DNA of 64,000 nucleotides, taken from the NCBI GenBank assembly GCA_030390025.1, contig CM059431.1, positions 145,888,001 to 145,952,000 of the forward strand. The letters run 5' to 3'. Numbering within the stretch: position 1 is the first letter of the stretch; the number at the start of each line of letters is the position of its first letter. Shown here piece by piece: positions 149-64,000 of the stretch. The notes beneath the pieces are model-generated. The model searched no databases. It was not told where the DNA came from and worked only from the letters and a program-made list of their open reading frames with translations. A program made the translations under genes and the position numbers. The DNA is from Squalus acanthias. Lineage: Eukaryota.

Positions 149-857
149 GGGCTGGATTTTGATACTGGGGCGGGTTGGGGTCGTGTTATCCACCCGACTG
201 TTATTGGATGTGGGAGATTGATGCAATTTTCACCTATTGGGCAATTGAGTTCCAGCATGTGGGAACCCATGAACCAATTAGTGGTTTCAGTCTGAAAGTC
301 GCCTCTGATGATGTCATCATTGCTGCTGCATTGAAGGTCAGAGACTGCCTGGCCTTTGCTGTGAGAGGACCTGGATGCAAAATGAGCAGCAGAGAGAGAG
401 AGAGAGAGAGAGAATTTTACATACAGGTCCTCTCCCAGCAAAGGCCAGGCAGTCTCTGAAGACTTTCAATGCAGCAGCATCAGAGGCGACTTTCAGACCT
501 AGTACTACTACCTTCACATCTCCGTTGTAATAGTAGCTGATAGTGAGCTATCCAAATGTGTTCCCACCAGGTTTCACAATCGTGGTTCAGAACAGGCGTG
601 CTTCATGCAGATCAAGGGTTAAAATCACAAAGGCCTTTCAAAATGGCATTATAGAGTCAATTTAGTGCTTGTTAAGGGCCTTAACAGCCTATCCCGCCTC
701 TTAAAGGCGGGATGGAGTCGGGGCCAGCAGACATGATTTAATGAAAATTCCGTGGAGGCGGGATGGAGGCGGACTTGTGCCTGCAGGCCAGTTTTCGCAA
801 TATTAACCCCCCACAAGCCTCCAAACCGGCCTCCACGGGTCAATGAAAATCCAGCCC
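149..857. mobile_element. Non-autonomous PIF/Harbinger-type MITE, copy 1 (709 bp)
   Basis: Perfect 12-bp terminal inverted repeats (TIRs) GGGCTGGATTTT (149-160) / AAAATCCAGCCC (846-857); 3-bp TSD AGT (146-148, 858-860); no credible ORF; removing it restores a satellite monomer. G-started short TIRs with a 3-bp TSD are typical of Harbinger. Confidence 0.88.
290..498. repeat. Long internal inverted repeat of MITE 1 centred on (AG)11
   Basis: Arm 290-383 (GTCTGAAAGTCGCCTCTGATG...GGACCTGGATGCAAAAT) is the imperfect reverse complement of arm 414-498 (ATTTTACATACAGGTCC...CATCAGAGGCGACTTTCAGAC); (AG)11 at 391-412. Confidence 0.9.
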
Positions 858-1835: not shown

Positions 1836-3248
1836 AGTGTGTTCAATTACTGGAAAACGGAGACTGGGAGTGGGTGTGTGAGAGACACAGTGTGTTAAAT
1901 TACTGGAACACGGAGAGTGAGAGTGTGAGGGACACAGAGTGTGCAATTACTGGAACAAGAAGAGTGAGAGTGTGAGGGACACAGTGTGTTCAATTACTGG
2001 AACACGGAGAGTGAGAGTGTGAGGGACACAGTGTGTTCAATTACTGGAACACGGAGTGTGAGAGTGTGAGGAACACAGTGTGTGTAATTACTGAAACAAG
2101 TAAAGTGATAGTGTGAGGGACACAGAGTGTACAATGACTGGAACACGGAGATTGAGAGTATGTGGGAGACAGGCTGTACAATTACTGAAACATGGAGAGT
2201 GAGAGTGCGAGGGACACAGTGTGTTAAATTACTGGAACACGGAGAGTGAGAGTGTGAGGGACAGGGTGTGCAAAAATTACTGGGACACGGAGAGTGTCAG
2301 GGACAGAGAGTGTGCAATTACTGGAACATGGAGAGTGAGAGTGTGTGGGACACAGTGTGTACAATTACTTGAACACGGAGAGTGAGAGTGTGAGGGACAC
2401 AGTGTGTAGAATTACTGGAACACGGAGAATGAGAGTGTGAGGGACACAGTGTTTGTAAAATTACTGGAACACGGAGAGTGAGAGTGTGAGGGACACAGAG
2501 TGTCCAATTACTGGAACACGGAGAGTGAGAGTGTGAGGGACACAAAGTGTACAATTACAGTAACACGGAGAGTGAGAGTGTGAGGGACACAGAGTGTAGA
2601 AATACTGGAACACGGAGAGTGAGAGTGTGAGGGACACAGAGAGTACAATTGCTGGAACACAGAGAGTGAGAGTGTGAGGGACACAGAGCGTAAAATTACT
2701 GGAACACGGAGAGTGAGAGTGTGAGGGACAGGGTGTGCAAAAATTACTGGGACACGGAGAGTGTCAGGGACAGAGAGTGTGCAATTACTGGAACATGGAG
2801 AGTGAGAGTGTGTGGGACACAGTGTGTACAATTACTTGAACACGGAGAGTGAGAGTGTGAGGGACACAGTGTGTAGAATTACTGGAACACGGAGAATGAG
2901 AGTGTGAGGGACACAGTGTTTGTAAAATTACTGGAACACGGAGAGTGAGAGTGTGAGGGACACAGAGTGTCCAATTACTGGAACACGGAGAGTGAGAGTG
3001 TGAGGGACACAAAGTGTACAATTACAGTAACACGGAGAGTGAGAGTGTGAGGGACACAGAGTGTAGAAATACTGGAACACGGAGAGTGAGAGTGTGAGGG
3101 ACACAGAGAGTACAATTGCTGGAACACAGAGAGTGAGAGTGTGAGGGACACAGAGCGTAAAATTACTGGAACATGGAGAGTGAGAGTGCGAGGGACACAG
3201 AGTGTGCAATTACTGGAACACGGAGAGTAAGAGTGTGAGGGACACAGA
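1836..3248 (+). repeat. 47-bp satellite including a 467-bp (10-monomer) tandem duplication at ~2226-3173
   Basis: Tandem monomers; the rare variant ACAGGGTGTGCAAAAATTAC recurs at 2261 and 2728 (offset 467). Confidence 0.92.
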
Positions 3249-3563
3249 GGGGTAAAAATTCACTTGGTTGCGCCTCCCGTTAGCGCCTTAAGAGGGCGCT
3301 AATGGGGCGTTTAGCCGCTAACGCCCGGGCACAGCGATGTTTGCGCCGCTCGAGAACTTAACTTGAGATTGTGCGGCGGCGCTAAAACTTACCGCTGCGA
3401 CCACCTGCGCGCGCAGATTGTGACTTCATTCCATGGTGCAACGCCCTTGGGGCCCCCCGGTGTGGAAATTGAGTGGCGCCCCCTGCCTTACCGCCTGGCG
3501 CTTCCAACGACCCGAAGACTGGAACTCTATCAATCGGTGTGGGGCTGGGGTGGGGGGGGGCGC

Positions 3564-3571
3564 TATTTAAA
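3564..3571 (+). promoter_or_regulatory. Possible TATA-like element upstream of the transposase
   Basis: TATTTAAA ~200 bp before the ATG at 3762, preceded by G-rich boxes; motif match only. Confidence 0.35.
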
Positions 3572-3761
3572 GGGAGCCTCTTCCTGTCTTTTTCTGTGGT
3601 CGACATTTATGCACCACTCGTTCTGAGAGCGAGAGAGAGATTCGGAGAGAGAGAGAGACTTCTACATTGACTCAACGCTTTGTGAGGTAGTTTTGCCTAT
3701 TCATCCTAACTTTGTTGCTACTTTAGTTGCTGTACCTCATTACTTTTCTGGCAAAGAGAAT

Positions 3762-4922
3762 ATGGGGGCTGCAATGATTGGGGGCGTCGTCCTGCTCCAG
3801 CTGAATCGGAGGATACCAAGACGCAGACAGAGAGTGGCAATGATGGCCAGACGGAGGAGGGCCATCAGGCGCATGTACAGGAGAGCTTACCCTCCCAGGG
3901 TATATCGTGAACAGCTCTCCTAAATCCATATGTCCGAGGAGCTGTGTTTGCAAAGGCTGCGATTCAGCAAGGAGGTGGTCACTGAGCTCTGCCACCTGCT
4001 GCAGCCAGATCTGCAGCCTCAGCTGAGGTCCAGGACGTCTCTGTCGGTGGCAGTGAAGGTCACAGTAGCTTTGAACTTCTACGCCACTGGCTCATTCCAA
4101 GCTCCTGTTGGGGACCTCGCCAATATCTCCCAGTTTGCGGTGCATCGCTGCATCCGGCAGGTCACCAATGCCCTCTTCAGAAGGAGATGAGACTTCATCT
4201 CTTTCCCTATGACCCCAGACAAGCAGCGTGACCGTGCTCTGGGCTTTGCGAGGGTAGCGGGCTTCCCCATGGTGCAGGGCGCCATTGACTGCACGCATGT
4301 GGCTTTGCGTGCTCCGCGAGAGAATGCAGAGGAATTCAGGAACAGAAAGGGGTTCCATTCCTTGAATGTGCAGTTGGTCTGTGACCACAGACAGGTGATA
4401 CTCGCTGTCAATGCCCACTATCCGGGCAGCTGCCACGATGCTTTCATCCTGCACCAGACTACTGTGGCAGAAGTTTTCGAGGCACCGCATCAGCCAGTTG
4501 GTTGGCTTCTGGGGGACAAGGGGTACGCATTGAGCACCTGGCTGATGACACCGCTCCGTATGCCAAACACCCCTGCTGAGCTGCGGTACAATGAAAGCCA
4601 TCAAGCAACCAGGAACATTATTGAGCGCACAATCGGCGTGCTGAAACAACGGTTCCACTGTCTGGACCATTCCGGAGGAGCCCTGCAGTACTCGCCTGAG
4701 CAAGTTTCGAACTTCGTAGTCGTGTGCTGCATGTTGCACAACATGGCAATCCTCAGGACCCAGCCAATGCCACCAGGCCTTGTAGCACCACCAGAGGAGG
4801 AGGAGGAAGAGGAGGAAGAGGACGAGGACGATGATCATCAGCAGCACCAAGGCAGGAGGGCGGCCCACAATGGTCAAACTGCAAGGGCCGTCCGTCAACG
4901 ACTAATAGCAAGCCGCTTCTAG
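3762..4922 (+). pseudogene. Harbinger transposase (HARBI1-family DDE nuclease), ~386 codons, two in-frame stops
   Basis: ORFs 3693-3923, 3930-4190 and 4209-4922 share one frame and are separated only by TAA (3921-3923) and TGA (4188-4190). Motifs: LRFSKE...L, ALNFYATGSFQ, GAIDCTHV, RNRKGFHSLNVQLVCD, YPGSCHDAFIL, LLGDKGY, RNIIERTIGVLKQRF, CCMLHN; acidic tail. Confidence 0.93.
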
Positions 4923-5033
4923 GGCCCCTGCCATTGCTACAAACATTAATCAACCCAGCACGCAACCCCTAAGCCGGCCAAGGCACCAATAATTCCAACC
5001 ACCAGCCATGTATATTTTGAATACAGAAACTTA

Positions 5034-5039
5034 TTTATT
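5034..5039 (-). terminator. Candidate polyadenylation signal for the Myb/SANT gene
   Basis: TTTATT on the + strand (AATAAA on -), ~180 nt past the stop at 5217. Confidence 0.55.
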
Positions 5040-5083
5040 TTACAAACTCTGTGTGTGTCAATTCCTCATGACAAACTCATAGA

Positions 5084-5089
5084 AATAAA
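5084..5089 (+). terminator. Candidate polyadenylation signal for the transposase (a second one at 5184-5189)
   Basis: AATAAA ~160 nt past the stop at 4922. Confidence 0.55.
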
Positions 5090-5216
5090 CACAAAAAAAC
5101 AGTCAATAACATAACTGGTTCTCACAACCTGGAGATAATGTCCAAAACACTAAACAAAAGTTGGACCATGAACCTCGGCCTTTAATAAAAAAATGACCAG
5201 CATTTTGTCACACCTC

Positions 5217-7154
5217 CTACTTTTTGCCCTTCGAGGGTGATCTCCTTCCCTTACGCACTTCCCCCCTTCTAACCCTACTGCTCCTCCGTAATGGGACCTC
5301 AGTGGCTGCAGCAAGGCTGGTGGAAGGCTGCTGCTCGTCAGACCCTGACACTGCAGATGCCCCTGAAGGACGGCCTCGACCACTTCTGGGCCTGGAGGGC
5401 CCTGCTGCAGACTGCACCAACTCTGCATGGGCGGCAGCAGTCTGTCCTACAGGCGGTGGCAAGTGCAGTGGAGAAGTGACAGTGTTGGCAGCAGGAATGC
5501 TGTTATCGTGAGAGAGGCCAGCAACTCCCTGCTCGCCCGACACACTGGCACTCCCACGGGGCAGCACTTCAGCATCCGGAGCAATCTGCCGGAGAACAGA
5601 TTGCTGGCCTGCTGCGGTGCGGTGACAGCCCCGGGGACATGTGCACGAACCATCGAGGTTGGCAGCAGTCTGTGCTCGCGTGGCCTCCATCTGAGTCTGT
5701 ATGAGAGCAATCAGAGGTGGGATCACGGCAGCCAGTGACTGAATTGCAGCACTAAGCGTTAGTGTGGCATCCGCCTGTGCTACAGCGAAGTGCTCCACAC
5801 TCCTTGCCAGTGACTCAATGCATTCGGGCACCCTTCCCACTGCACCCATGAGCTCAGTGTGCATGCCCACCGCCTGGGTGTTCATTTCTGCAATCAGCCG
5901 CTCCTCCTCTGCGTCCATTGCAGTAGGAGTGTCTGGCATACTCTCCCTCTGGGGAGAAGGCCCCCGTTCTTCCCTACCCCCCCCCCCCCCCATGGCATTG
6001 CTGCAGCCCGCTGGGTCCTGGAGCTTCACCATCATCAGCCCCTTCCCCCCTGCTCCCCTCCGGGGAAGGCGTGTTCCCAGTGTGGGCATGGGCTTCCTCG
6101 GGAGAGGGTGGCACTGATGCTCTGGCTTCCTCTTCCTCCTCAGCTGCAGCATCACTCCCAGTGGCAGCTTCAGGGCCCGTCTCCTCAGCTGGTGAATCAC
6201 CATCTGAAAGCAGGGAGGTACAAGAGTGGCTTTAGCGTGAGGACAGGGTGGCAGTAAGGGAGGAATAAGTGCAGCGAGTTAGCAAGTTGGATTGAAAGTG
6301 TCAAAGGCTGGTGTTGTGAGGGACAAGTGGAAGGACAGAGGACAAAAAGGTGATGACCTTACCATTGCTGTCCACAACGGGGTCGGCGTCTCCAGTGGCG
6401 ACGGGACCGATCACCCGGCTTGCCACAATCCTGTGGACGCGCTCCTCCAGAACGCTGAGGGGTTGCAGCTGAAGCCGCCCTCCACCTGTCCGTTGCTGCT
6501 GTCTCCTATTATGAGCCAGCTTGGCCTGCAAGAAAAAGGACAGCATCTGAGTAAATATACAGCCATGGTCTTGCCTGATGTGCCTCCCATAGGTGAATAG
6601 CCCTTACAATATACAGCCATGGTCTTGCCTGATGTGCCTCCCATAGGTGAATAGCCCTTACAATGTACAGCCATGGTCTTGCCTGATGTGCCTCCCATAG
6701 GTGAATAGCCCTTACAATATACAGCCATGGTCTTGCCTGATGTACCTCCCATAGGTGAATAGCCCTTACTGTATGCAAAGTGTGGAATGTGCGTGTGTGT
6801 TTGATGAAAGGGCCATAGGTGTTGGATGAGTGTTGTGCATTGGGGTTTTAAGACCCTCTGGCCATAGAGTGAGGTTGAGATGGAGGGATGGAGAGGTATT
6901 GAGAAAAAGCCACTCACCCTGACGACCCGAGTGAGGTTGTTGAACTTTTTGCGGCATTGAGTATGGATCCTGGGCACCATGCTCCTGGAGGAGACGCTCT
7001 GAGCCACCTCCCTCCACACTCTTCTGAACTCGCGTGGCAAAGGCCTCCTGCCACTCTCAGGGAACAGCATACATCGTCTGCGCTCCACTGCATCAACCAG
7101 AGCATCCAAGGCCCGCTCGGTGAAGCGATGAGCGCGTTCTCTCACCCTCTCCAT
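5217..7154 (-). pseudogene. Harbinger ORF2 Myb/SANT (trihelix)-like DNA-binding protein; exons 7154-6918, 6525-6363, 6203-5217; frameshift at a G15 run
   Basis: Exon 1 encodes RFTERALDALVDAV...RRVWREVAQSV...RIHTQCRKKFNNL (Myb/SANT-like). Donor GTGAGT at 6917; acceptor TTCTTGCAG before 6525; exon 2 AKLAHNRRQQQRTGGG; donor GTAAGG at 6362 (phase 1); acceptor CTTTCAG before 6203. The spliced frame gives an acidic linker (DGDSPAEETGPEAA...EEEEE) and hits TAG right after the G15 run (5991-5977). Removing one G joins it to the open frame ending at 5217 (~460 aa). Confidence 0.82.
6554..6769. repeat. 54-bp minisatellite, 4 near-identical copies, in intron 1 of the Myb/SANT gene
   Basis: AGCCATGG recurs at 6561, 6615, 6669 and 6723; unit AATATACAGCCATGGTCTTGCCTGATGTGCCTCCCATAGGTGAATAGCCCTTAC. 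Confidence 0.95.
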
Positions 7155-7514
7155 GCTTGGCAGCAAAATGGATTACAGGTCTCTCCAGGCTGAGATTCAA
7201 GGCTGCAATGAGCAGGGTGTGGCTGGGGAGCAAGTGCCCCCCCCCCCCGCTTTAAGAAGTGTCCGGCGCCAGTGTGTCTGTGTTCCCTCGCTAACTGGCA
7301 ACAGCTGCGCTGCACTCGCGCGCTGAATTAGCGCCTCACTCCTTGGCCTTTGCACCTTAAGAGAGGTGTGCAGCGCCTGCTTTAGCGCTCCACTCACCTC
7401 CCGGGGCGGTAAAAGTGAAGTTTCCTGTCAGTACCGATAATTAGCGAAAGGCGCTAATATTTGCGTCCGGACGATATTTGCGCCCCAAATGGGGCGCGAC
7501 CTAATTTCTACCCC

Positions 7515-52500: not shown

Positions 52501-53992
52501 GTGTGAGGGACACAGAGTGTTCAATTACTGGAACACGGAGAGTGAGAGTGTCAGGGACACAGAGTACAATTGCTGGAACACGGAGAGTGAGAGTGTGAGG
52601 GACACAGAGTGTACAATTACTGGAACATGGAGAGTGAGAGTGTGAGGAACAGAGAGTGTACAATTGCTGGAACACGGAGAGTGAGAGTGTGAGGGACACA
52701 GAGTGTACAATTACTGGAACACGGAGAGTGAGAGTGTGAGGGACACAGAGTGTACAATTACTGGAACACGGAGAGTGAGAGTGTGAGGGACACAGTGTGT
52801 ACAATTACTGGAACACGGAGAGTGAGAGTGTGAGGGACACAATGTGTGGAATTACTGGAACACGGAGAGTGAGAGTGTGAGGGACACAGAGTGTAAAATT
52901 ACTGGAACACGGAGAGTGAGAGTGTCAGGGACAGAGATTGTGCAATTACTGGAAAACGGAGAGTGAGTGTGTGAGGGACACAGAGTGTACAATTACTGGA
53001 ACACGGAGAGTGAGAGTGTGAGGGACACAGAGTGTACAATTACTGGAACACGGAGAGTGAGAGTGTGAGGGACACAGAGTGTACAATTACTGGAACACGG
53101 AGAGTGAGAGTGTGAGGGACACAGTATGTCCAATTACTGGAACACGGAGAGTGAGAGTGTGAGGGACACAGTGTGTAACAATTACTGGAACACGGAGAGT
53201 GAGAGTGTGAGGGACACAGTATGTCCAATTACTGGAACACGGAGAGTGAGAGTGTCAGGGACACAGTGTGTGCAATTACTGGAACACGGAGAGTGAGAGT
53301 GTCAGGGACACCGTGTGTACAATTACTGGAACACGGAGAGTGAGAGTGCGAGGGACACAGAGTGTACAATTACTGGAACACGGAGAGTGAGAGTGTCAGG
53401 GACAGAGAGTGTGCAATTACTGGAACACGGAGAGTGAGAGTGCGAGGGACACAGAATGTTTAATTACTGGAACACGGAGTGTGTGAGGGACACAGAGTGT
53501 TCAATTACTGGAACACGGAGAGTGAGAGTGTCAGGGACACAGTGGTAACAATTACTGGAACACGGAGAGTGAGAGTGTCAGGGACACAGTGGTAACAATT
53601 ACTGGAACAAGGAGAGTGAGAGTGTGAGGGACACAGAGTGTTAAAATTACTGGAACACGGAGAGTCTGAGGGACACAGAGTGTACAATTACTGGAACACG
53701 GAGAGTGAGAGTGTGAGGGACACAGTGTGTGCAATTACTGGAACACGGAGAATGTCAGGGACACAGAGTGTGCAATTACTGGAACAGGGAGAGTGTCAGG
53801 GACACAGAGTGTGCAATTACTGGAGCACGGAGAGTGAGAGTGTGAGGGACACAATGTGTACAATTACTGGAACACGGAGAGTGTCAGGGACACAGTGTGT
53901 ACAATTACTGGAACACGGAGAGTGTCAGCGACACAATGTGTACAATTACTGGAACACGGAGAGTGTCAGCGACACAATGTGTACAATTACTG
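7515..53992 (+). repeat. Main 47-bp satellite array (~46.5 kb, roughly 1000 monomers) with kb-scale higher-order duplications
   Basis: Uninterrupted head-to-tail monomers in one orientation, with length variants such as 41 bp (GAGAGT lost) and 45 bp; 33/47 purines on +; ends abruptly at ...GTACAATTACTG|ATCTG. Confidence 0.98.
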
Positions 53993-54002
53993 ATCTGTCA
54001 GG

Positions 54003-54174
54003 TTCCAGGAACTTGCGAATTTTTCTCCATGTTCTGCTTCCCGAATTGTGTTCCGCCCATTAGGTTTTGGCACAATTCTGGGTGGAGTCAGCTCCCCCAT
54101 TCTGGCGGTGCTCTGTTGGATGCTGACCAAGAATTGCAATGTGCTGAGTCATCAGCGGGAAAGTGAGTATAAGA
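54003..54174 (+). promoter_or_regulatory. Putative compact promoter of the crystallin-domain gene
   Basis: TTCCAGGAA (STAT/GAS consensus TTCN3GAA, 54003-54011), TGCTGAGTCAT (AP-1/NF-E2-MARE, 54142-54152), TATAAGA (54168-54174); motif matches only. Confidence 0.5.
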
Positions 54175-54260
54175 CCACGCGTGAACCAGGAAACCACTGA
54201 ATGATTTTACTGGCATTGAACTCACTGAAATCTGACGCAGCGACCAAAGCAACAGTCAGG

Positions 54261-54803
54261 ATGGCCACAAACGAAATGATTGTCCTGTTCGAGGAAACCG
54301 AACTGAAAGGCGAAAAGGAGCAATTCAGGAACAGTGTTCCTGACCTTGCGACTCAGATGTTCTGTGGTCGTGCTCGCTCCCTGAAGGTGGAAGGCAAACA
54401 TTGGGTTGCATACAAGGAACCAGACTACAAAGGAGAGTTCGTGGTTTATGGAGACGGGAACCACGACTGTCTCGGCACCATGGATAAAGCGATTCGATCT
54501 TTGCGCCTGGTGACTGAAGATTTACAAAACCCAAACATCGTTCTGCACCAACACGTTAATTATGACGGTGCGAGTCGTGACATCGACTCCGAAGTCAAAA
54601 ATGTGAAGTATGCTGGGTTCGAGCATCTGGTTTCCTCCCATAAGGTGAAGCAAGGTGTCTGGATTCTGTACGAAGATGTCGATTTCAAAGGGAGACGCGT
54701 CATCACCTTTCAAGGTGACAAATGGCCAGACTACCGCACACATCACTTGAACGACAAGATATCTTCACTGCGACCCTTACTGAGTTCTGATAAAATTGTG
54801 TGA
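54261..54803 (+). CDS. Beta/gamma-crystallin domain protein, epidermal differentiation-specific protein (EDSP/EP37)-like, 180 aa (200 aa from the ATG at 54201)
   Basis: Intact single-exon ORF with four Greek-key motifs: IVLFEETELKG...RSLKVEGKHWVAYKEPDYKG...RSLRLVTEDLQNPNIVLHQHVNYDG...VSSHKVKQGVWILYEDVDFKG...NDKISSLRP. The linker SLRLVTEDLQNP and the SSHKV..GVW segment are recognised as EDSP-like. The ATG at 54261 has the better Kozak context (AGGATGG). Confidence 0.88.
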   Translation: MATNEMIVLFEETELKGEKEQFRNSVPDLATQMFCGRARSLKVEGKHWVAYKEPDYKGEFVVYGDGNHDCLGTMDKAIRSLRLVTEDLQNPNIVLHQHVNYDGASRDIDSEVKNVKYAGFEHLVSSHKVKQGVWILYEDVDFKGRRVITFQGDKWPDYRTHHLNDKISSLRPLLSSDKIV

Positions 54804-55068
54804 AAACTCAGTTTGCGAAGAGTTTGAGCGGATCCAGCGCAGGCTGATCTGCTGCCCGCCCTCTGCTGATTGACTGTCCTTCCTTTACTAAACCCACGGT
54901 CTGTAGGAGAGAGAATCTGCATCGAACATCTTTCACTGAATCCTCAACCAGCTCCCCCTCTGCAAACTGCTTCCAAATTGTTGTAACCCTGTAACGCTGC
55001 TGATTGCTGTTCCTCGGTGTAGATTGAGTCTGTAACTTTGCTTGGCTCTATCAGTTCATAACCAATCT

Positions 55069-55074
55069 AATAAA
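55069..55074 (+). terminator. Polyadenylation signal of the crystallin-domain gene
   Basis: AATAAA ~265 nt after the stop, followed by T/GT-rich sequence. Confidence 0.7.
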
Positions 55075-55142
55075 ATTACAATGCTGCAAACTCATTGCCA
55101 ATGTTTCCGTTTGGCTCATTTCTCCAATTCTCTGAAATCTAG

Positions 55143-55270
55143 TGTCTAGAAATTGGTCTCGGGCGGTGGCGCGGAACGGGCGGTATCGGCCCGGCCGCCC
55201 AGTGAACGCAGCGCCCGATATTTAACTGCAATAAGTGTAATGGAACTAAATATCAGGCGCTGCGCATAAT
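55143..55270. mobile_element. Degenerate Harbinger-like MITE remnant with an internal hairpin
   Basis: TGTCTAGAAATTGGTC resembles the right TIR of the large element (GGGGTAGAAATTAGGTC); CpG-rich; 18-bp inverted repeat 55207-55224 / 55247-55264 (17/18 match). No second TIR or TSD found. Confidence 0.45.
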
Positions 55271-55550
55271 CTACACGGATATGTTTGAAAGTGTGCGTTT
55301 AGATTGATGAGGTGTCGCAGTATATCTTAAATAACAAGGTAGGGGTGAGGGTCAGAGAGCGAGAATGGAATGACTAGGAACCTTGTGAACCTGACCCTCC
55401 CAGCTGTTCCACCACATTCCCGAGGCAGTGCACCGACAGACTGATCCTCCTGAATTTATCCCGGTTATACACTTGCGTGCCTCTCAGTGCGTGTGTCTAA
55501 ACACTGTTAAAGAAACTGCGTCCCACCGATCCGAGCAGAGGTGTGTTACG

Positions 55551-55768
55551 GGGCTGTTTTCACCGGTGCACAGCAGGCTGAGAGGAGATTTAATCGAGGT
55601 TTTTTTTTGCTGGATGAAGGTTAGTGTTTGAGCACGGAAAGAGAATGCGTCGCAACAGGGCGAGGTTGACGCCGAGAATACCGCAACTTTAAAGGACTGA
55701 GTAAATATAAATATTTGTAACAAAGCAAGATACAGGGCAATGGGGAGAGAGCGGGGCAGTGGGATTAG
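55551..55768 (+). mobile_element. Decayed CR1-type LINE 3' fragment (ORF2 C-terminus)
   Basis: Translates to GLFSPVHSRLRGDLIEVF (CR1 motif GLFSLExRRLRGDLIEV), then VDAENTATLK (cf. VEADSIxTFK), ending IQGNGERAGQWD* (TAG 55766-55768); internally deleted and frameshifted. Confidence 0.7.
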
Positions 55769-58700
55769 TTTGGGATTGATACAGGGCTATGGGGAGAGAG
55801 CGGGGCAGTGGGATTAGTTTGGGATTGATACAGGGCAATGGGGAGAGAGCGGGGCAGTGGGATTAGTTTGGGATTGATACAGGGCAATGGGGAGAGAGCG
55901 GGGCAGTGGGATTAGTTTGGGATTGATACAGGGCAATGGGGAGAGAGCGGGGCAGTGGTATTAGTTTGGGATTGTTACAGGGCTATGCAGAGAGAGCGGG
56001 GCAGTGGGATTAGTTTGGGATTGATACATGGGTATGGATGAGAGTGGGAGTGGGATTAGTTTGGGATTGATAAATGGCTATGGGTGGAAAGCGGGGCAGT
56101 TGTATTAGTTTTGGATTGATACAGGACTATGGGGAGAGAGCGGGGCTGTGGGATTAGTTTGGGATTGATACAGGGGGATGTGGAGAGCGGGGAGCAGTGG
56201 AATTAGTTTGGGATTGATACAGGGCGATGTGAAGAGAGCGGAGCAGTGGGATTAGTTTGGGATTGATACAGGGCTATGGGGAGAGAGCGGGGCAGTGGGA
56301 TTAGTTTGGGATTGATACAGGGCGATGGGGAGAGAGCAGGGCAGTGGGATTAGTTTCGGATTGATACAGGGCGATGGCGAGAGAGCGGGGCAGTGGGAAT
56401 AGTTTGGGATTGATACAGTGTTATGGGGAGAGAGCGGAGCAGTGGGATTAGTTTGGGATTGATACAGGGCGATGGGGAGAGAGCGGGGTAGTGGGATTAG
56501 TTTGGTATTGATACAGGGATATGGGGAGTGAGCAGGTCAGTGGGATCGATTTGGGTTAGAAACATGATTATGGTGAGAGAGCAGATTCGTGGGATTAGTT
56601 TGGGGATTGATAAAGGGCGATGGGGAGAGAGTGGAGCCGTGGGATTAGTTTGGGATTGATACAGGGCTATGTGGAGAGACTGAGGCAGTGTGATTAGGTT
56701 GGGATTGATACAGGGCTATGGGGAGAGAGCAAGGCATAGATGGTCAGTTTGTGATTGATACAGGCGCTATGGGAGTAGAGCGGTGCAGTGAAATAAGCTT
56801 GGGATTGATACAGGGCTATAGGGAGGGAGCGAGGGAGTGGGGTTAGTTTATGATTGATACTTGGCTAAGGGGTGTGAGCAGGACAGTGGGATTGGTTTGG
56901 GATTGATACAGGGCTATGAGGAGAGAGTGAGGCAGTGGTGTTAGTTTGTGATTGATACAGGACTATGGGGTGTGAGCAGGTCAGTGGGATTGGTTTGGGA
57001 TTGATACAGGGCTATGTGGAGAGAGTGAGGCAGTGGTGTTAGTTTGGCATTGATACAGGGCTATGGGGAGGGAGCGAGGCAGTGGGAGTGGTTTGGGATT
57101 TATACTGGTCTAGGGGACAGAGCGGGGCTTTGAAATTAGCTTGGGATTGATACAGGGCTATGGGGAGAGAGCGGGGCAGTGGGATTAGTTTGGGATTGAT
57201 ACAGGGCTATGGGAAGAGAGCGGTGCATTGGAATAAGCTTGAGATTGATACAGCGCTATGGGGAGAGAACAGAGCAGTGGGATTAGCACTGGATTGACAG
57301 AAAGCTATGGGGAGACAGCGGGGCAATGGGATTAGTTTGGGATTGATATAGGGCTATGGCGAGATAGTGGGGCAGTAGGATTAGTTGGGGATTAATACCG
57401 GGATATGGGGGAGAGCAGGGCAGTGGGATTAGGTTGGGATTGATACAGGGCTATGGAGACAGAACGGGCAGTGGGATTAATTTGGAATTGATACAGTGCT
57501 ATGGGGAGAGAGTGAGGCAGTGGGATCAGTTTGGGATGGATACTGGGCTATGGGTAGAGAGCAAGGCAGTGTAATTAGTTTGGGATTGTTACAGGGCTAT
57601 GGGGAGGGAGCGAGGCAGTGGGAGTAGTTTGGGGTTGATACAGGCTATGGGAGGGAGCGGGGCAGTGGGATTATCCTGGGATTGTTACAGGGCTATGGGA
57701 AGAGAGTGGTGCCGCGGAATTAGCTTGAGATTGATACAGGGTTATGGGAGAGCAGCGCAGTGGGATTACTTTGGGATTGATACAGGGCTATTGGGAGAGA
57801 GCGGGGCAATGGGATTAGTTTTGTATTGATACAGGGCTATGGGGAGAGAGCAGGTCAATGTGATAAGTTTGGGATTGATACTGGTCTATGGGGAGAGAGT
57901 GGAGCCATGGGATTATTTTGGGATTGATAGAAGGCTATGTGGAGAGAGTGAGGCAGTGGGATTAGTTTGGCATTGATACAGGGCTATGTGCAGAGAGTGA
58001 GGCAGTGGGATTAGTTTAGGATGGATACTGGTCTATGGGTAGAGACCAAGGCAGCGTAATTAGTTTGGGATTGATACAGGTTTATGGGGAGAGAGCGAGG
58101 CATTGAGGTCAGTTTGGGATTGATATAGGGCTATGGGGAGGGAGCGAGGCAGTGCGAGTAGTTGGATTAGGCTATGGGGGGAGCGAGCAGTGCATATTAC
58201 CGGGCTATGGGAAGAGAGCGGTGCAGTGGAATTAGCTTGGGATTGATACAGGACTATGCGGAGAGAGCGGTGCATTGGAATTAGTTTGGGATTGATACAG
58301 GGCTATGAAGAGAGAGCAGGGCAATGGGATTAGTTTTGTATTGATACAGGGCTATGGGGAGAGAGCAGGGTAGTGGGATCAGTTTTGTATTGATACAGGG
58401 TTATGGGGAGAGCGGGGCAGTGGGATTAGTTTGGGATTTATACAGGACTATTGGGGGAAAGCGGGGCAGTAGGATTAGTTTGGGATTGATACAGGACTAT
58501 GGGGGGAGAGCGGGGCAGTAGAATTAGTTTGGGATTGATACAGGACTATGGTGGGAGAGCGGGGCAGTGGGATTAGTTTGTGAATAATACAGGGCTATGG
58601 GGAGAGAGGGGCAGTGGGATTAGTTTGTGAATAAAACAGAGCTATGGGGAGAGAGTAGGTCAATGGGATTAGTTTGGGATTGATACAGGGCTATGGGGAG

Positions 58701-61700
58701 AGCGGAGTAGTGGGATTAATTTGGGATTCATACAGGACTATGGGGTGAGAGTGGGGCAGACGGATTAGTTTGGGATTGATACAGGTCTATGGGGAGAGAG
58801 CGGGGTAGTGGTATTAGTTTTCGGATTGATGCAGGTTATGGGGTGAGAGCGGAGCTGTGTGATTAGTTTGGGATTGATGCAGGGCTGTGGGGGAGAGCGG
58901 GGCAGTGGGATTAATTTGGAATTGTTACAGGGCTATGTAGAGAGAATGGGGCAGTGGAATTATTTTGAGATTGATACAGGGCTATGGGGAAAGCGGGGCT
59001 GTGGGATTAGTTTGGGATTGATACAAGGCCAAGGGGAGTGAGCAGGACAGTGGGATTAGTTTGGGATTGATAGAGGCCGATGGGGAGAGAGCAGGGCAGT
59101 GGGATTAATCTGGTGTTTGCTACAGGGCTATTGGGGAGGGCGGGGGGAGCGAACCAGTGGGGTTAGTTTGCAATTGATACAGGGCTATGGGGAGGGAGCG
59201 AGGCCGTGGGAGTATTTTGGGATTGATACAGGTCTAGGGGACAGAGCGGGGCTTTGGAATTAGCTTGGGATTGATAAAGGGCTGTGGGGAAAGCGGGGCA
59301 GTGGGATTAGTTTGAGATTGATACAGGGCTATGGGAAGAGAGTGGTGCAGTGGAATAAGCTTGGAATTGATACAGGTTTATGGGGAGAGAACAGAGCAGT
59401 GGGATTAGCACTGGATTGACAGAAAGCTATGGGGAGAGAGCGGGGCAATGGGATTTGTTTCGAATTGATACACGGCTATTGGGAGAGAGTGGATCAGTAG
59501 GATTAGTTTGGGATTAATAACGGGATATGGGGGGAGAGCAGGGCAGTGGGATTAGGTGGAGATTGACACAGGGCTATGCGGACATAGAGGGCAGTGGGAT
59601 TAATTTGGGATTGATACAGGGCTATGGGGAGAGAACGGGGCAGTGGGATTAGTTTGGGATTGATACAGGGCTATGGGGAGAGAGCGGGGCAGTGGGGTAA
59701 GTTTGGGATTGATGCAGGGCTATCGAGAGAAAGCAGGGCAGTGGGATTAGTTTAGAATTGATACATGACTATGGGGAGAGTGAGGCAGTGGGAATAGTTT
59801 GGGATTTATACAGGGCTAAGGGGAGTGAGCAGGACAGTGGGATTAGATTGGGATTGATACAGGGCTATGGGGAGAGTGCGGGACATTGGGAGCAGTTTTT
59901 AATTGATACAGGGCAATGCAGAGGGAGCGGGGCAGTGGGAGAAGTTTGGGATAGATACAGGGCGATGGGGTGAGAGCGGAGCCATGGGATTAGTTTGGGA
60001 TTGATACAGGGCAATGTGGAGAGAGTGAGGCATTGGGATTAGTTTGGGATTGATACAGAGCTATGGGGAGAGAGCAGGTCAGTGTGCTAAGTTTGGGATT
60101 GATACAGGTCTATGGGGAGACAGTGGGGCTGTTGGTTTAGTACTGGATTAATAGAGGGTTATGGGGAGAGAGTGAGGCAGTGGGATTAGTTTGGGATTGT
60201 TCCAGGGATATGGGGAGTGAGCAGGTCAGTGGGATCAAGTTGAGATAGAAACAAGGCTATGGGGAGAGAGCAGATTTGTGGGATAAATTTGGGATTGATA
60301 CAGGGCGATGTGGAGAGAGTGAGGCAGTGGGATTAGTTTGGGATTGATACAGGTCTATGGGGAGAGAGCGGGGCAGTGAGATTAGTTTGGCATTGATACA
60401 GGGCTATGGGGAGACAGTGGGGCTGTTGGTTTAGTACTGGATTAATAGAGGGTTATGGGGAGAGAGTGAGGCAGTGGGATTAGTTTGGGATTGTTCCAGG
60501 GATATGGGGAGTGAGCAGGTCAGTGGGATTAAGTTGAGATAGAAACAAGGCTATGGGGAGAGAGCAGGTTTGTGGGATAAATTTGGGATTGATACAGGGC
60601 GATGTGGAGAGAGTGAGGCAGTGGGATTAGTTTGGGATTGATACAGGATTATGGGGAGAGAGCAGGGCAGTGCGATTAGTTTGTGAATGATACAGGGCTA
60701 TTGGTAGAGAGCAAGGCAGTGTAATTAAGTTGGGATCGATACTGGACTATGGGGAGAGAGCGGGGCAGTGGGACTATTTGGGATTGATACAGGATTATGG
60801 GGAGAGAGCGGGGCAGTGGGATTAGCACTGGATTGACATAAAGCTATGTGGAAAGAGCGGGGCAATGGGATTTGTTTGGAATTGATACACGGCTATTGGG
60901 AGAGAGTGGGGCAGTAGGATTAGTTTGGGATTAATACCGGGATATGGGGGGAGAGCAGGGCAGTGGGATTAGGTGGGGATTGACACAGGGCTATGGGGAC
61001 AGAGTGGGCAGTGGGATTAATTTGGGATTGATACAGGGCTATGGGGAGAGAACGGGGCAGTAGGATTAGTTTGGGATTAATACCGGGATATGGGGGGAGA
61101 GCAGGGCAGTGGGATTAGGTGGGGATTGACACAGGGCTATGGGGACAGAGTGGGCAGTGGGATTAATTTGGGATTGATACAGGGCTATGGGGAGAGAACG
61201 GGGCAGTGGGATTAGTTTGGGATTGATACAGGGCTATGGGGAGAGAGCGGGGCAGTGGCGTTAGTTTGGGATTGATGCAGGGCTATCGAGAGAGAGCAGG
61301 GCAGTGGGATTAGTTTAGAATTGATACAGGACTATGGGGAGAGTGAGGCAGTGGGAATAGTTTGGGATTTATACAGGGCTAAGGGGAGTGAGCAGGACAG
61401 TGGGATTAGATTGGGATTGATACAGGGCTATGGGGAGAGTGCGGGACATTGGGAGCAGTTTTTAATTGATACAGGCCAAAGTAGAGAGAGAGGGGCAATG
61501 GGAGAAGTTTGGGATAGATACAGGGCGATGGGGAGAGAGCGGAGCCGTGGGATTAGTTTGGGATTGATACAGGGCAATGTGGAGAGAGTGAGGCAGTGGG
61601 ATTAGTTTGGGATTGATACAGGTCTATGGGGAGAGAGCGGAGCAGTGGGATTAGTTTGGCGTTGATACAGAGCTATGGGGAGAGAGCAGGGCAGTGGGAT

Positions 61701-64000
61701 TAGTTTGGGATTGATACAGGGCTATGGGTAGAGAGCAAGGCAGTGTAATTAAGTTGGCATTGATACTGGACTATGGGGAGAGAGCGGGGCAGTGGGAATA
61801 GTTTGGGATTGATACAGGGCTATGGGGACAGAGCGGGCAGTGGGATTAATTTGGAATTGATACAGTGCTATGGGGAGAGAGTGAGGCAGTGGGATCAGTT
61901 TGGGATGGATACTGGGCTATGGGTAGAGAGCAAGGCAGTGTAATTAGTTCGGGATTGATACAAGGCTATGGGGAGAGAGCGAGGCATTGAGGTCAGTTTG
62001 TGATTGATATAGGGTTATGGGGAGGGAGCGAGGCAGTTGGAGTAGTTTGGGGTTGATACAGGGTTACGGGGAGAGCGGGGCAGTGGGATTAGTTTTGTAT
62101 TGATACAGGGCTATGGGGAGCGAGCGGGACAGTGGGATTAGTTTGGGATTGATACAGGGTTATGGTGGGAGCGGGGCAGTGGAATTAGCTTGGGATTGAT
62201 ACAGGGCTATGAGGAGAGAGCGGGGCAAAGGGATTAGTTTTGTATTGATACAGGGCTATGGGGAGAGAGCAGGGTAGTGGGATCAGTTTTGTATTGATAC
62301 AGGGTTATGGGGAGAGCGGGGCAGTGGGATTAGTTTGGGATTTATACAGGGCTATTGGGGGAAAGCGGGGCAGTAGGATTAGTTTGGGATTGATACAGGA
62401 CTATGGGGGGAGAGCGGGGCAGTAGAAGTAGTTTGGGATTGATACAGGACTATGGGGGGAGAGCGGGCCAGTTGAATTAGTTTGGGATTGATACAGGACT
62501 ATGGGGGGAGAGCGGGGCAGTGGGATTAGTTTGTGAATAATACAGGGCTATGGGGAGAGAGAGGGGCAGTGGGATTAGTTTGTGAATAATACAGAGCTAT
62601 GGGGAGAGACTAGGTCAGTGGGATTAGTTTGGGATTGATACAGGGCTATGGGGAGAGAGCGGAGTAGTGAGATTAGGTTGGGGTTGATACAGGGCTATGG
62701 GGGAGAGCGGGGCAGTGGGATTAATTTGGAATTGTTACAGGTCTATGTAGAGAGAATGGGGCAGTGCAATTATTTTGAGATTGATACAGGGCTATGGGGA
62801 AAGAGTGAGGCAGTGGGATCAGTTTGGGATGGATACTGGGTTATGGGGAGAGAGCAGGGCAGTGGGATTACTTTGGGATTGATACAGGGCTATTGGGAGA
62901 GAGCGGGGCAATGGGATTAGTTTTGTATTGATACAGGGCTATGGGGAGAGAGCAGGTCAGTGTGATAAGTTTGGGATTGATACAGGGCTATGGGGAGAGA
63001 GTGGAGCCGTGGGATTATTTTGGGATTGATAGAAGGCTATATGGAGAGAGTGAGGCAGTGGGATTAGTTTGGCATTGATACAGGGCTATGTGGAGAGAGT
63101 GAGGCAGTGGGATTAGTTTAGGATGGATACTGATCTACGGGTAGAGACCAAGGCAGTGTAATTAGTTTGGGATTGATACAGGGCTATGGGGAGGGAGCGA
63201 GGCAGTGGGAGTAGTTTGGGATTGATACAGGGTTATGGGCAGAGCGGGAGAGTGGGATTAGATTGGGATTGATACCGGGCTATGGGAAGAGAGCGGTGCA
63301 GTGGAATTAGCTTGGGATTGATACAGGACTATGGGGAGAGAGCGGTGCATTGGAATTAGTTTGGGATTGATACAGGGCTATGAGGAGAGAGCGGGGCAAT
63401 GGGATTAGTTTTGTATTGATACAGGGCTATGGGGAGAGAGCAGGGTAGTGGGATCAGTTTTGTATTGATACAGGGTTATGGGGAGAGCGGGGCAGTGGGA
63501 TTAGTTTGGGATTTATACAGGGCTATTGGGGGAAAGCGGGGCAGTAGGATTAGTTTGGGATTGATACAGGACTATGGGGGGAGAGCGGGGCAGTAGAATT
63601 AGTTTGGGATTGATACAGGACTATGGGGGGAGAGCGGGCCAGTTGAATTAGTTTGGGATTGATACAGGACTATGGGGGGAGAGCGGGGCAGTGGGATTAG
63701 TTTGTGAATAATACAGGGCTATGGGGAGAGAGAGGGGCAGTGGGATTAGTTTGTGAATAATACAGGGCTATGGGGAGAGAGAGGGGCAGTGGGATTAGTT
63801 TGTGATTATACAGAGCTATGGGGAGAGAGTAGGTCAGTGGGATTAGTTTGGGATTGATGCAGGGCTATGGGGGAGAGCGGGGCAGTGGGATTAATTTGGA
63901 ATTGTTACAGGGCTATGTAGAGAGAATGGGGCAGTGGAATTATTTTGAGATTGATACAGGGCTATCGGGATAGCGGGGCTGTGGGATTAGCTTGGGATTG
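55729..64000 (+). repeat. 49-bp G-rich satellite (~170 monomers, continues past window end)
   Basis: Consensus GATACAGGGCTATGGGGAGAGAGCGGGGCAGTGGGATTAGTTTGGGATT; period 49 (55729, 55778, ...); more diverged than the 47-bp array. Confidence 0.97.

What the first reader, a model, noticed from the sequence alone, without database searches (positions are those of the whole stretch)
55551..64000. A satellite apparently born in place from the last codons of a CR1 LINE
Seen: a decayed CR1 ORF2 C-terminus (RLRGDLIEVF...VDAENTATLK) leads collinearly, on the same strand, into the first 49-bp monomer. Each monomer reads IQGYGERAGQWD* plus ~10 nt. Known (from recollection of the family, not a search): fish CR1 ORF2 often ends with a motif like QGYGERAGEWD*. 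Inference: the stop-codon region of this LINE copy was tandemly amplified more than 170 times, leaving the parent stump attached.
Basis: partly seen in the sequence, partly recalled or inferred. Interest (0 to 1): 0.7.

Follow-up and report, generated by a model that had tools for sequence, protein, structure and literature searches.

The report
CR1-derived 49-bp shark satellite array
A long run of 49-base repeats, each a copy of the last codons and stop signal of a jumping gene, starts exactly where that gene's decayed remains end, but the same repeat is very abundant in this shark-type genome and its relatives, so this is one outgrowth of a known kind of transposon-derived satellite and probably not its birthplace.

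Summary
The array is real: 170 full 49-bp units from 55729 to the window end, on average 88.6% like their consensus. Public contigs show a dispersed parent that carries one unit, continues upstream in register with the window's stump (16 of 20 bases) and downstream into a non-satellite tail. So the unit is the stop-codon region of a dispersed LINE-like element. The CR1 label is recalled, not tested against a library. 'Born in place' is only partly supported. The stump is an old single-copy insertion shared by three organisms, and the array expanded here by block duplications. But summed contig depth on the unit is 4e4-4e5 times the flank in all three. Units 1-5 are the freshest in the array, beside an 18%-decayed stump. 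Best model (0.5): a CR1 lineage carried a short tandem of this unit, which alters neither ORF2 nor the 3' end, and seeded arrays that grew locally. Rivals are invasion by existing satellite and repeated local birth. Transposon-derived satellites are known, including CR1-derived ones in chicken.

The parts
55297..55540 (.). Single-copy flank upstream of the stump; present in organisms A, E and G
   Evidence: Flat baseline depth (18, 66, 49-157, about 260-520 in runs X1, X3, X19, X21) and orthologous contigs (tables 2 and 8)
55551..55728 (+). Decayed 3' end of a LINE-like ORF (CR1 ORF2 by recalled motif): no upstream part of the element seen, three stops, one frame change near 55697-55706, probably an internal deletion near 55605-55625 (inferred)
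   Evidence: Translations. Multi-copy contigs pile on 55540-55620 and 55702-55728, while the bins 55648-55674 stay at single-copy depth in all four runs. Orthologous contigs in E and G differ by 6.1-8.4%
55707..55728 (+). Stump bases directly before unit 1, collinear with the dispersed parent
   Evidence: 16 of 20 bases (55707-55726) match the consensus of 89 upstream loose ends in run X1, without a gap (chance)
55729..55777 (+). Unit 1: last base of a codon, 12 codons, TAG stop at 55766-55768, and 9 bases of 3' UTR
   Evidence: The parent continues behind 55778 into a non-satellite tail in 156 (X1) and 122 (X3) contigs
55729..55973 (+). Units 1-5: the freshest block of the array (mean 1.0 difference from consensus; 4 of 5 share one T>A change)
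   Evidence: Array mean 5.65 differences; the lowest of the 161 other 5-unit blocks is 2.4
55784..55812 (+). Canonical four-tract G-quadruplex motif, shown for unit 2 (identical to the consensus)
   Evidence: Regex and G4Hunter mean 1.24 for the consensus; kept in 41 of 170 units, including units 1-4. Folding not tested
55729..64000 (+). 49-bp satellite array, 170 full units, open at the window end, with irregular multi-unit block duplications
   Evidence: e.g. units 134-141 = 158-165 at 0.25 differences per unit; 83-89 = 115-121; 42-48 = 147-153; 50-60 = 154-164

Best explanation
The 49-bp unit is a piece of a dispersed LINE (CR1 by recalled motif): the last 12 codons of ORF2, the stop codon and 9 bases of 3' UTR (shown, except for the family name). 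It forms an old, very abundant satellite family shared by at least three organisms (shown roughly). I infer that the duplication arose once, in a retrotransposing CR1 lineage. Because the first copy keeps the stop codon and the rest of the 3' UTR follows the last copy, a short tandem changes neither the protein nor the 3' end needed for copying. Such carrier copies inserted at many sites, this one included, and their short tandems grew into long arrays by unequal exchange and block duplication (local growth shown; carrier step inferred). A G-quadruplex motif in the unit may help destabilise it (inferred). The stump then decayed as single-copy DNA while the units kept turning over. The array grew here but the unit was not invented here.
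For: Parent on both sides of one unit: 89 upstream and 156 downstream loose ends in X1, 122 downstream in X3, and 26 and 27 similar downstream ends in X19 and X21. The same consensus appears in all four runs, with summed depth 139,490, 340,210, 415,639 and 42,916 times the flank. The stump's flank is single-copy, so this locus is not a segmental duplicate. The breakpoint has only 1 base of exact microhomology in organism A (by eye), which makes repeated independent births of one unit less likely. X21 record 24 is a 377-base contig that matches 55707-55797 (one unit plus 20 bases of the next) with 11 differences in 91. A parent tail there would cost 13 differences on its own, and 286 further upstream bases do not fit this locus, so it looks like a second body-to-tandem junction. 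Unchecked note e1-7790172 reports a 14-kb array of a 49-bp CR1-derived unit inside another CR1 fragment 48 Mb away. Block duplications are evident. Precedent: nine of 11 Lathyrus satellites grew from short arrays carried in Ogre 3' UTRs (PMC7004042, abstract and passages).
Against: No intact or young element with a short tandem was seen. Only 32 of 98,379 laid pieces were shown, and I could not read their sequences. Record 24 is one contig at depth 23, about a sixth of one haplotype in that run, so it may come from other DNA. The fresh units 1-5 beside an 18%-decayed stump (Fisher P 0.03; P 0.0007 for at most 1 difference if aged alike) need later rewriting of the edge under this model, and fit invasion at least as well. 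The far end of the array and any 3' UTR there are outside the window (0 matches inside). Summed depth is not a copy number, as the tool warns.
Confidence: 0.5

Rival explanations
1. Invasion: the satellite already existed elsewhere, and an array fragment (by ectopic recombination, gene conversion or circular DNA) recombined into the single native 49-bp segment of this old CR1 copy. That gives the same in-register junction without any carrier element.
For: There is a sharp step in divergence at 55729 (4 of 22 against 1 of 49, P 0.03), and units 1-5 are the freshest block. A huge donor pool exists in all three organisms.
Against: Orthologous contigs in A, E and G all stop 29-34 bases into unit 1 (55758, 55762, 55757). 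This implies a near-consensus unit already stood here before the split, so any invasion is old and the fresh edge still needs later turnover. A decayed 49-bp target is a poor recombination substrate (general knowledge).
Confidence: 0.22
2. Repeated local birth: the stop-codon region of this CR1 family is fragile (G-quadruplex plus short microhomology), so several inserted copies, this one included, duplicated the same 49 bases independently.
For: The junction is in register. The consensus holds a G-quadruplex motif: 41 motifs in the array against a shuffled mean of 14.2, maximum 23 of 100 shuffles. G4-forming minisatellites are unstable in yeast (PMC2673046, abstract). An unchecked note reports a similar parent-attached array from an L2 element in this genome (e1-7857509).
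Against: The 49-base consensus is the same in all four runs although exact microhomology is only 1 base in A (possibly 3 in E and G, from low-agreement consensuses). 6.8% of 2000 shuffles of the consensus also hold the motif, so it is only mildly special. If this decayed copy had founded the array late, the consensus should carry its private damage, yet the consensus reading frame is intact.
Confidence: 0.18
3. Unique birthplace: this very copy founded the whole family, and all other arrays spread from here.
For: The stump looks older (about 18% from the parent over 22 bases) than the array's diversification (10.5% to consensus) and than the A versus E/G split (6-8% pairwise), so the order of events allows it.
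Against: There is evidence of other body-to-array junctions (record 24; unchecked note e1-7790172). The prior is low that one window holds the founder of so abundant a family. No gradient of older units near the stump was found (Spearman rho -0.10, P 0.19).
Confidence: 0.05
4. Coincidence or mis-assembly: an unrelated satellite happens to abut a LINE fragment, or the junction is an assembly artefact.
For: No single contig spans from the flank beyond unit 1. The CR1 name is not confirmed by any library search.
Against: Independent contigs in three organisms join the stump to the first 29-34 bases of unit 1, and parent contigs continue on both sides in register.
Confidence: 0.03

Closest known systems
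Chicken HinfI (SCR1) repeat and chicken Cen2/3/4/7/11 satellites (seen only as passages and table rows in reviews PMC9659126 and PMC6947457; originals not seen)
   Same: Satellite sequence derived from CR1; for HinfI it is the same region, partial ORF2 plus 3' UTR.
   Different: By the cited title, the CR1 element is embedded in the HinfI repeat. Here the whole 49-bp unit is element sequence, and the parent's upstream part stands in register in front of the array.
Common cetacean satellite from the L1 3' end (review passage in PMC9659126; original not seen)
   Same: Abundant satellite from the 3' part of a LINE, shared across related species.
   Different: Different LINE clade; the passage gives no in-register stump.
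Ogre-borne tandem repeats: PisTR-A of pea and nine Lathyrus sativus satellites (PMC7004042, abstract and passages; PMC9659126 passage)
   Same: Short tandems just downstream of a retrotransposon's coding region are carried to many sites and occasionally expand into long arrays. This is the mechanism I favour.
   Different: Those are plant LTR elements with hypervariable non-coding tandems. Here the element is a vertebrate non-LTR one, the unit includes the last codons and the stop, and the carrier step is not shown.
Human G-rich minisatellite CEB1 (PMC2673046, abstract)
   Same: Short G-rich unit with a G-quadruplex motif that could drive array instability.
   Different: G4 folding and instability were shown there; here only the motif is present.

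Membership tests
CR1-clade LINE (parent element) | Reverse transcriptase domain that groups with CR1 | not testable with these tools
   The stump covers only the end of the ORF. No Dfam/Repbase was on hand, and the parent contigs' sequences were not returned.
CR1-clade LINE (parent element) | APE endonuclease and ORF1 | not testable with these tools
   Not in the window; no genome held.
CR1-clade LINE (parent element) | ORF2 C-terminal sequence similar to known CR1 proteins | tested here: inconclusive
   0 hits among 3 candidates; 2 hits among 1.84 billion representatives, both unrelated repeat proteins; motif absent from searched paper text and one supplement. The likeness to CR1 is recalled.
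CR1-clade LINE (parent element) | Dispersed multicopy element with an ORF ending in a stop and a shared downstream tail | tested here: met
   89 upstream and 156/122 downstream loose ends with one consensus each, median 235 and 249/108 bases. CR1-group elements make up 22-34% of elasmobranch genomes (PMC13343379 passage), and the window is elasmobranch-like.
CR1-clade LINE (parent element) | 3' terminal stem-loop and short tandem tail | not testable with these tools
   Loose ends give 30 letters only; the far end of the array is outside the window.
Transposon-derived satellite DNA | Long head-to-tail array of a fixed unit | tested here: met
   170 units of 49 bp over 8.27 kb, open-ended.
Transposon-derived satellite DNA | Unit homologous to part of a dispersed element | tested here: met
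   Parent contigs hold one unit flanked by non-satellite sequence on both sides.
Transposon-derived satellite DNA | High genomic abundance | tested here: met
   8,743-41,386 contigs laid per run; summed depth 4e4-4e5 times the flank. A rough measure, not a copy number.
Transposon-derived satellite DNA | Turnover by block duplication or higher-order structure | tested here: met
   23 duplicated blocks of 3-11 units listed; 101 of 170 units fall into 35 clusters of near-identical units.
Transposon-derived satellite DNA | Heterochromatic or centromeric location | not testable with these tools
   No chromosome position or chromatin data.
Ogre-type carrier (short tandems inside mobile copies that later expand) | Short arrays at a fixed position and orientation inside many dispersed copies | tested here: inconclusive
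   One low-depth contig among the 32 pieces shown (record 24) and one unchecked note.
Ogre-type carrier (short tandems inside mobile copies that later expand) | Relatives that hold element-borne short arrays but no long satellite | not tested

The most novel reading that the evidence does not exclude
A vertebrate CR1 lineage stayed mobile while carrying a 'silent' tandem duplication of its own stop-codon region. Each new insertion planted a G-quadruplex-prone seed that could expand, so one of the most abundant satellites of this shark group is a set of separately planted arrays, each still bracketed by its ORF2 stump and 3' UTR. The stumps would then date each array independently, which makes rates of satellite growth and homogenisation measurable.
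Probability: 0.35. Interest if true: 0.6.

Novelty: new member of a known kind. Interest (0 to 1): 0.35.

Why it matters
The origin of most satellites is erased. Here the parent element, the exact breakpoint and an orthologous single-copy stump in three organisms are all readable. If many arrays keep such stumps, they give an internal clock for how satellites spread and homogenise, and a vertebrate LINE counterpart of the Ogre carrier mechanism known from legumes. As it stands, it is a well-preserved further example of a known process.

Tried and rejected
No whole genome is held, so other loci could not be read. Protein searches with the read-through stump gave no CR1 protein: 0 of 3 candidates, and 2 hits among 1.84 billion representatives, both repetitive and unrelated, so rejected. 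The antisense satellite peptide gave 0 of 6 candidates. DNA patterns for the unit and for the parent's tail gave 0 matches in metagenome and viral contigs, and the tail gave 0 matches in the window at up to 3 mismatches. Rfam over 53900-57000 gave one match below threshold (CPEB3 ribozyme, E 0.2), rejected as chance. A two-unit DNA strand has no notable hairpin (z 0.88). There is no gradient of divergence away from the stump. No RNA holder was listed. I laid 4 of the 21 listed runs; the small shares of the others are not used as evidence. My first placement of the frame change near 55725 was wrong; one search shows no gap from 55707 onward. X1 record 6 (18 differences in 91) equals by my count what a parent with an exact consensus unit plus tail would give. 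This is only suggestive, because a diverged tandem fits too. Paper searches and two supplement searches found no description of this 49-bp unit. The library lacks most subscription journals, Repbase and Dfam. The consensus sequences of PMC13343379 are on Zenodo, and the supplements of bioRxiv 10.1101/2025.06.08.657570 (curated elasmobranch repeats) were not seen; either may already hold the parent or the unit. Searches of earlier findings by sequence, by look-alike and nearby gave nothing.
Full report
Setting. The window is almost all tandem repeat: a 47-bp array at 7514-53965 (999.7 copies) and a 49-bp array at 55729-64000 (170.0 copies). Between them lies a 200-codon beta/gamma-crystallin ORF (Pfam Crystall, E 1.5e-30). 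All 10 of its listed relatives are from cartilaginous fishes, 9 from sharks and rays, at 41-58% identity. So this is an elasmobranch-type genome. No whole genome is held.

The array. A cyclic alignment gives 170 full units and one base. Units differ from the consensus by 5.65 positions on average and from each other by 9.9 of 49. The consensus equals unit 2 (55778-55826). It reads IQGYGERAGQWD*, then 9 bases, then the G that starts the next unit. Only 4 of the 169 units 2-170 encode this exactly, and unit 1 has N for Y. The start is sharp. The array has grown by irregular block duplication: units 134-141 recur as 158-165 with 0.25 differences per unit, and 22 other blocks of 3-11 units are listed. 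CpG sites differ in 27.9% of units, other G sites in 13.4%, and A and T sites in about 8%; shared descent inflates these counts. The far end is outside the window.

The stump. RLRGDLIEVF (55575-55604) and VDAENTATLK (55665-55694) are in one frame, with TGA stops at 55629 and 55698. The monomer peptide is in another frame, with a TAA at 55718. That these motifs are typical of CR1 ORF2 ends is recalled. I also recall that intact proteins have some 35-40 more residues between them, which would mean an internal deletion near 55605-55625. Neither was tested. Protein searches did not confirm the family.

The parent exists. I laid contigs of four public runs (organism A twice, E, G; 4 of 21 listed) on 55000-55797 at 80% likeness. 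Behind 55778, 156 contigs of X1 and 122 of X3 leave the array into one non-satellite consensus; X19 and X21 show a similar end behind 55773 (26 and 27 contigs). Before 55727, 89 contigs of X1 (median 235 loose bases, agreement 0.56) share a consensus that continues the monomer's reading frame. It matches the window's 55707-55726 at 16 of 20 bases with no gap (P 4e-7 to 5e-5). So a dispersed element holds this unit once, between coding sequence and a tail, and the stump is its upstream part.

The satellite is a large shared family. The runs gave 8,743, 41,386, 16,234 and 29,998 laid contigs. Summed depth on the unit is 139,490, 340,210, 415,639 and 42,916 times the single-copy flank. The tool warns that this is no copy number, so I use it only as an order of magnitude. 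The upstream loose ends at 55729 give the array's own consensus in all four runs, apart from one base in X19.

The locus is old and single-copy. Contigs from E and G cover the flank and stump at 6.1-8.4% difference. In A, E and G the contigs stop at 55758, 55762 and 55757, 29-34 bases into unit 1. I infer that a near-consensus unit, and probably an array, follows in all three, because a lone segment aged like the stump would have unique words and the contigs would run on. The relative order is: stump about 18% from its parent (4 of 22 bases, a small sample), units 10.5% from their consensus, species 6-8% apart pairwise.

What argues against 'born here'. Units 1-5 average 1.0 difference from consensus, below all 161 other five-unit blocks (lowest 2.4), and four of them share one change. 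Against the adjacent stump this is a step (4 of 22 versus 1 of 49, P 0.03). Unit 1 is therefore not the original aged element sequence; the edge was rewritten or brought in. X21 record 24 joins parent-like upstream sequence from another place to one unit plus 20 bases of the next (11 differences in 91, where a parent tail would cost 13). It is a single contig of low depth. I could check its abundance claim (one search agrees) but not its locus.

Mechanism. The duplicated segment begins inside the ORF and ends in the tail. The first copy keeps the stop, and the rest of the tail follows the last copy, so a short tandem should leave the element mobile (inference). With only 1 base of exact microhomology at the breakpoint in A, one origin followed by transport is simpler than many identical births. 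I give the carrier model 0.5, invasion of an old copy by existing satellite 0.22, repeated local birth 0.18, unique birthplace 0.05 and artefact 0.03. The unit carries a canonical G-quadruplex motif (41 of 170 units; 41 motifs against a shuffled mean of 14.2; but 6.8% of shuffled consensus units have one too). By analogy with CEB1 (PMC2673046, abstract) it may favour expansion; this is untested.

Comparison with what is known. Reviews list CR1-derived chicken satellites (HinfI/SCR1 from partial ORF2 plus 3' UTR; Cen2, 3, 4, 7, 11) and the L1-derived cetacean satellite (PMC9659126, PMC6947457; passages and tables). Satellites that grow from short arrays carried inside Ogre elements are described in PMC7004042 (abstract and passages). 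PMC3747384 names the shark HE1/HER1 pair (table passage); I could not compare sequences. Passages of five shark or CR1 papers (PMC13343379, PMC11406177, PMC10620051, PMC13100897, bioRxiv 10.1101/2025.06.08.657570) and two supplement searches did not show this unit, nor did motif and topic searches (listings only). Repbase, Dfam and most subscription papers were out of reach, so this is weak evidence of novelty.

Verdict. The feature is real, and its derivation from the end of a dispersed LINE-like ORF is well supported. It grew locally but is probably not the family's birthplace. It is a new member of a known kind; interest 0.35, rising to about 0.6 if the carrier mechanism is shown across loci.

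Noticed in passing
window 54201-54803 (+): Intronless, uninterrupted beta/gamma-crystallin ORF (200 aa from the first ATG; a later ATG at 54264 would give a length closer to its 171-177 aa relatives), most like shark 'epidermal differentiation-specific protein-like' genes. AATAAA near 55070. It sits on a 1.8-kb island between two satellite arrays.
   Followed up: partly
window 7514-53965, also 20-149, 857-1049, 1868-3249: A 47-bp satellite of about 1000 units, 88% adjacent matches, strongly G- and A-skewed like the 49-bp array and on the same strand, with no G-quadruplex motif. Origin not examined.
   Followed up: no
window 149-857, 1049-1835 and 3249-7514: Three Harbinger-type insertions at the same position of the 47-bp unit. 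Two non-autonomous elements share terminal inverted repeats and have AGT target duplications (opposite orientations, by eye). A 4.3-kb element with an AGA duplication carries a DDE_Tnp_4 ORF (+) and a Myb/SANT ORF (-). The transposase region has a stop at 3921-3923. Similar to unchecked note e1-7790025.
   Followed up: partly
window 6554-6769: Four near-identical 54-bp copies (98%) inside the Harbinger element, apparently within the Myb/SANT gene: a young tandem riding in a transposon.
   Followed up: no
window 55135-55270: A short dispersed repeat between the crystallin gene and the stump, with summed depth up to several hundred times the flank in all four runs and 162-164 loose ends at 55146 in organism A.
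   Followed up: no
window units 32, 76, 105 (57247, 59369, 60786) and 91, 97 (60101, 60395): Units in which three or four adjacent bases just behind the stop codon change together, which may reflect exchange with another subfamily of the parent or the satellite.
   Followed up: no
window 2228-3228: A 467-bp (ten-unit) higher-order duplication in the 47-bp satellite (TRF period 467, 93% matches).
   Followed up: no
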